DNA of 64,000 nt from Methanococcus aeolicus Nankai-3 (GTDB lineage Archaea; AGJL01; Methanococci; Methanococcales; Methanococcaceae). Location: the NCBI RefSeq assembly GCF_000017185.1, contig NC_009635.1, positions 248,563 to 312,562 of the forward strand. The letters run 5' to 3'. The text below is the continuation of a report on this DNA, generated by a model with database tools. The DNA itself is not shown here.

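What the first reader, a model, noticed from the sequence alone, without database searches (positions are those of the whole stretch)
2505..63505. GGAGCTCC is a highly iterated 8-bp palindrome (about 55 copies in 64 kb) in a very AT-rich genome
By eye I located GGAGCTCC starting at these positions: 2505, 2739, 2829, 5142, 5986, 6262, 6322, 6574, 7281, 7867, 9583, 9652, 11329, 11840, 14876, 19525, 20714, 20839, 21282, 21943, 22165, 22204, 24517, 24838, 25273, 25779, 26765, 26975, 27438, 27993, 28262, 29097, 31290, 32572, 33189, 34038, 35141, 35273, 36598, 42719, 48219, 49250, 51980, 52220, 53077, 53709, 55235, 56987, 57414, 59661, 61189, 62458, 62810, 63163, 63498. About 12 further GAGCTC cores have one flank changed (for example 2446, 8931, 12753, 14248, 26499, 28285, 29655, 32438, 33101, 52980, 55775, 62561).

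The G+C content is roughly 30% (my estimate, not computed). At that composition, an 8-mer with six G/C positions is expected well under once in 64 kb.

The motif is read in all three frames:
- GGA-GCT-CCn as Gly-Ala-Pro, in LeuRS, ProRS, aIF2-gamma (three times), archaellins, FlaI, PpsA, Rpo7 and AtwA.
- nGG-AGC-TCC as x-Ser-Ser, in shikimate kinase, CbiL, RFA-P synthase and PpsA.
- G-GAG-CTC-C as Glu-Leu-x, in many minus-strand genes.

It also occurs in spacers. Using GAG/CTC/GCT/TCC codons where this genome otherwise prefers A/T-ending codons argues for selection, or a biased conversion process, acting on the DNA word rather than on a peptide.

The density of about 1 per 1.2 kb resembles cyanobacterial HIP1 (GCGATCGC) or the uptake sequences of Neisseria and Haemophilus. 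Methanococci are naturally transformable, so a DNA-uptake or self-recognition tag is one hypothesis. A methyltransferase- or repair-driven HIP-like process is another. I know of no description of such an element in Methanococcales.
Basis: partly seen in the sequence, partly recalled or inferred. Interest (0 to 1): 0.9.

Follow-up and report, generated by a model that had tools for sequence, protein, structure and literature searches.

The report, continued
Noticed in passing
loci L095, L097, L098, L099, L003, L007, L110, L113, L114: The tetranucleotide AGCT is almost absent in several Methanothermococcus-like relatives: 0-5 copies against 7-56 expected. L110 has replaced all 11 AGCT sites of the 88%-identical Ax23 sequence. 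This suggests strong AluI-type restriction pressure in lineages interleaved with the GAGCTC-rich ones.
   Followed up: partly
window, whole: ACGT occurs twice against 177 expected (observed/expected 0.01). CTAG, GATC, GTAC and GTNAC are at 0.18-0.30. ACGT, CTAG and GTNAC are the MaeII, MaeI and MaeIII sites of M. aeolicus; the causes of GATC and GTAC avoidance were not examined.
   Followed up: partly
L186 (plasmid pMETOK01 of M. okinawensis IH1), 1-14930: The plasmid carries 13 GAGCTC against 0.63 expected. It also encodes a Type IIG/Eco57I-MmeI-like methyltransferase (5124-8597) beside a PLD-SNF2 helicase (9590-12637), an 801-aa ORF with no Pfam or PADLOC match (2640-5045), and RelE and MazF toxins.
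   Followed up: partly
L104 1-7665 and L106 1-9238: These metagenome contigs are mosaics. One segment carries only GGAGCTCC (M. aeolicus-sister type) and an adjoining segment carries GAGCTC with mixed flanks (Ax23 type). They are either recombinants between dialect lineages or assembly chimeras.
   Followed up: no
window 13816-14466 and 14524-15336: A HerA-like ATPase is split into two ORFs in both M. aeolicus strains but is one intact 504-aa gene in the sister species (L085 8226-9740).
   Followed up: no
window 243-5402: A cluster of a DUF262/GmrSD_N protein (PADLOC candidate families PDC-M55C and HEC-05), a PD-(D/E)XK nuclease and a UvrD-like helicase. It may be a defence island, and it is dense in the word.
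   Followed up: partly
window 15400-19200: Two ORFs without Pfam matches, a lysine 2,3-aminomutase and a GNAT acetyltransferase are missing between the TraB and HerA genes in the sister species (L085). This segment contains no copy of the word.
   Followed up: partly
L082 745-2150 (M. aeolicus PL15/Hp), corresponding to window about 33350-34500: PL15/Hp has a DUF2540 gene plus a tyrosine integrase inserted next to tRNA-Ser. The window lacks this insertion, and the insertion has no copy of the word.
   Followed up: partly
window 36600-48200; L182 6107-11939; L183 6089-11972: The flaC-flaJ part of the archaellum operon is poor in the word in M. aeolicus, Ax23 and M. okinawensis IH1 alike. The cause is unknown.
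   Followed up: partly
window 35141, 35273, 36588: Three copies share the 17-mer CCAGAGTTCGGAGCTCC (Pro-Glu-Phe-Gly-Ala-Pro) within the archaellin paralogues, so they are not independent. Three tandem 214-aa archaellin genes (36687-38737) are about 80% identical to one another.
   Followed up: no
L305, L219, L257, L265, L302, L306 (IMG/VR contigs): Low-G+C viral contigs hold 3-4 GGAGCTCC copies spaced 18-45 nt apart, apparently short tandem coding repeats. They are unrelated to the Methanococcales loci.
   Followed up: partly
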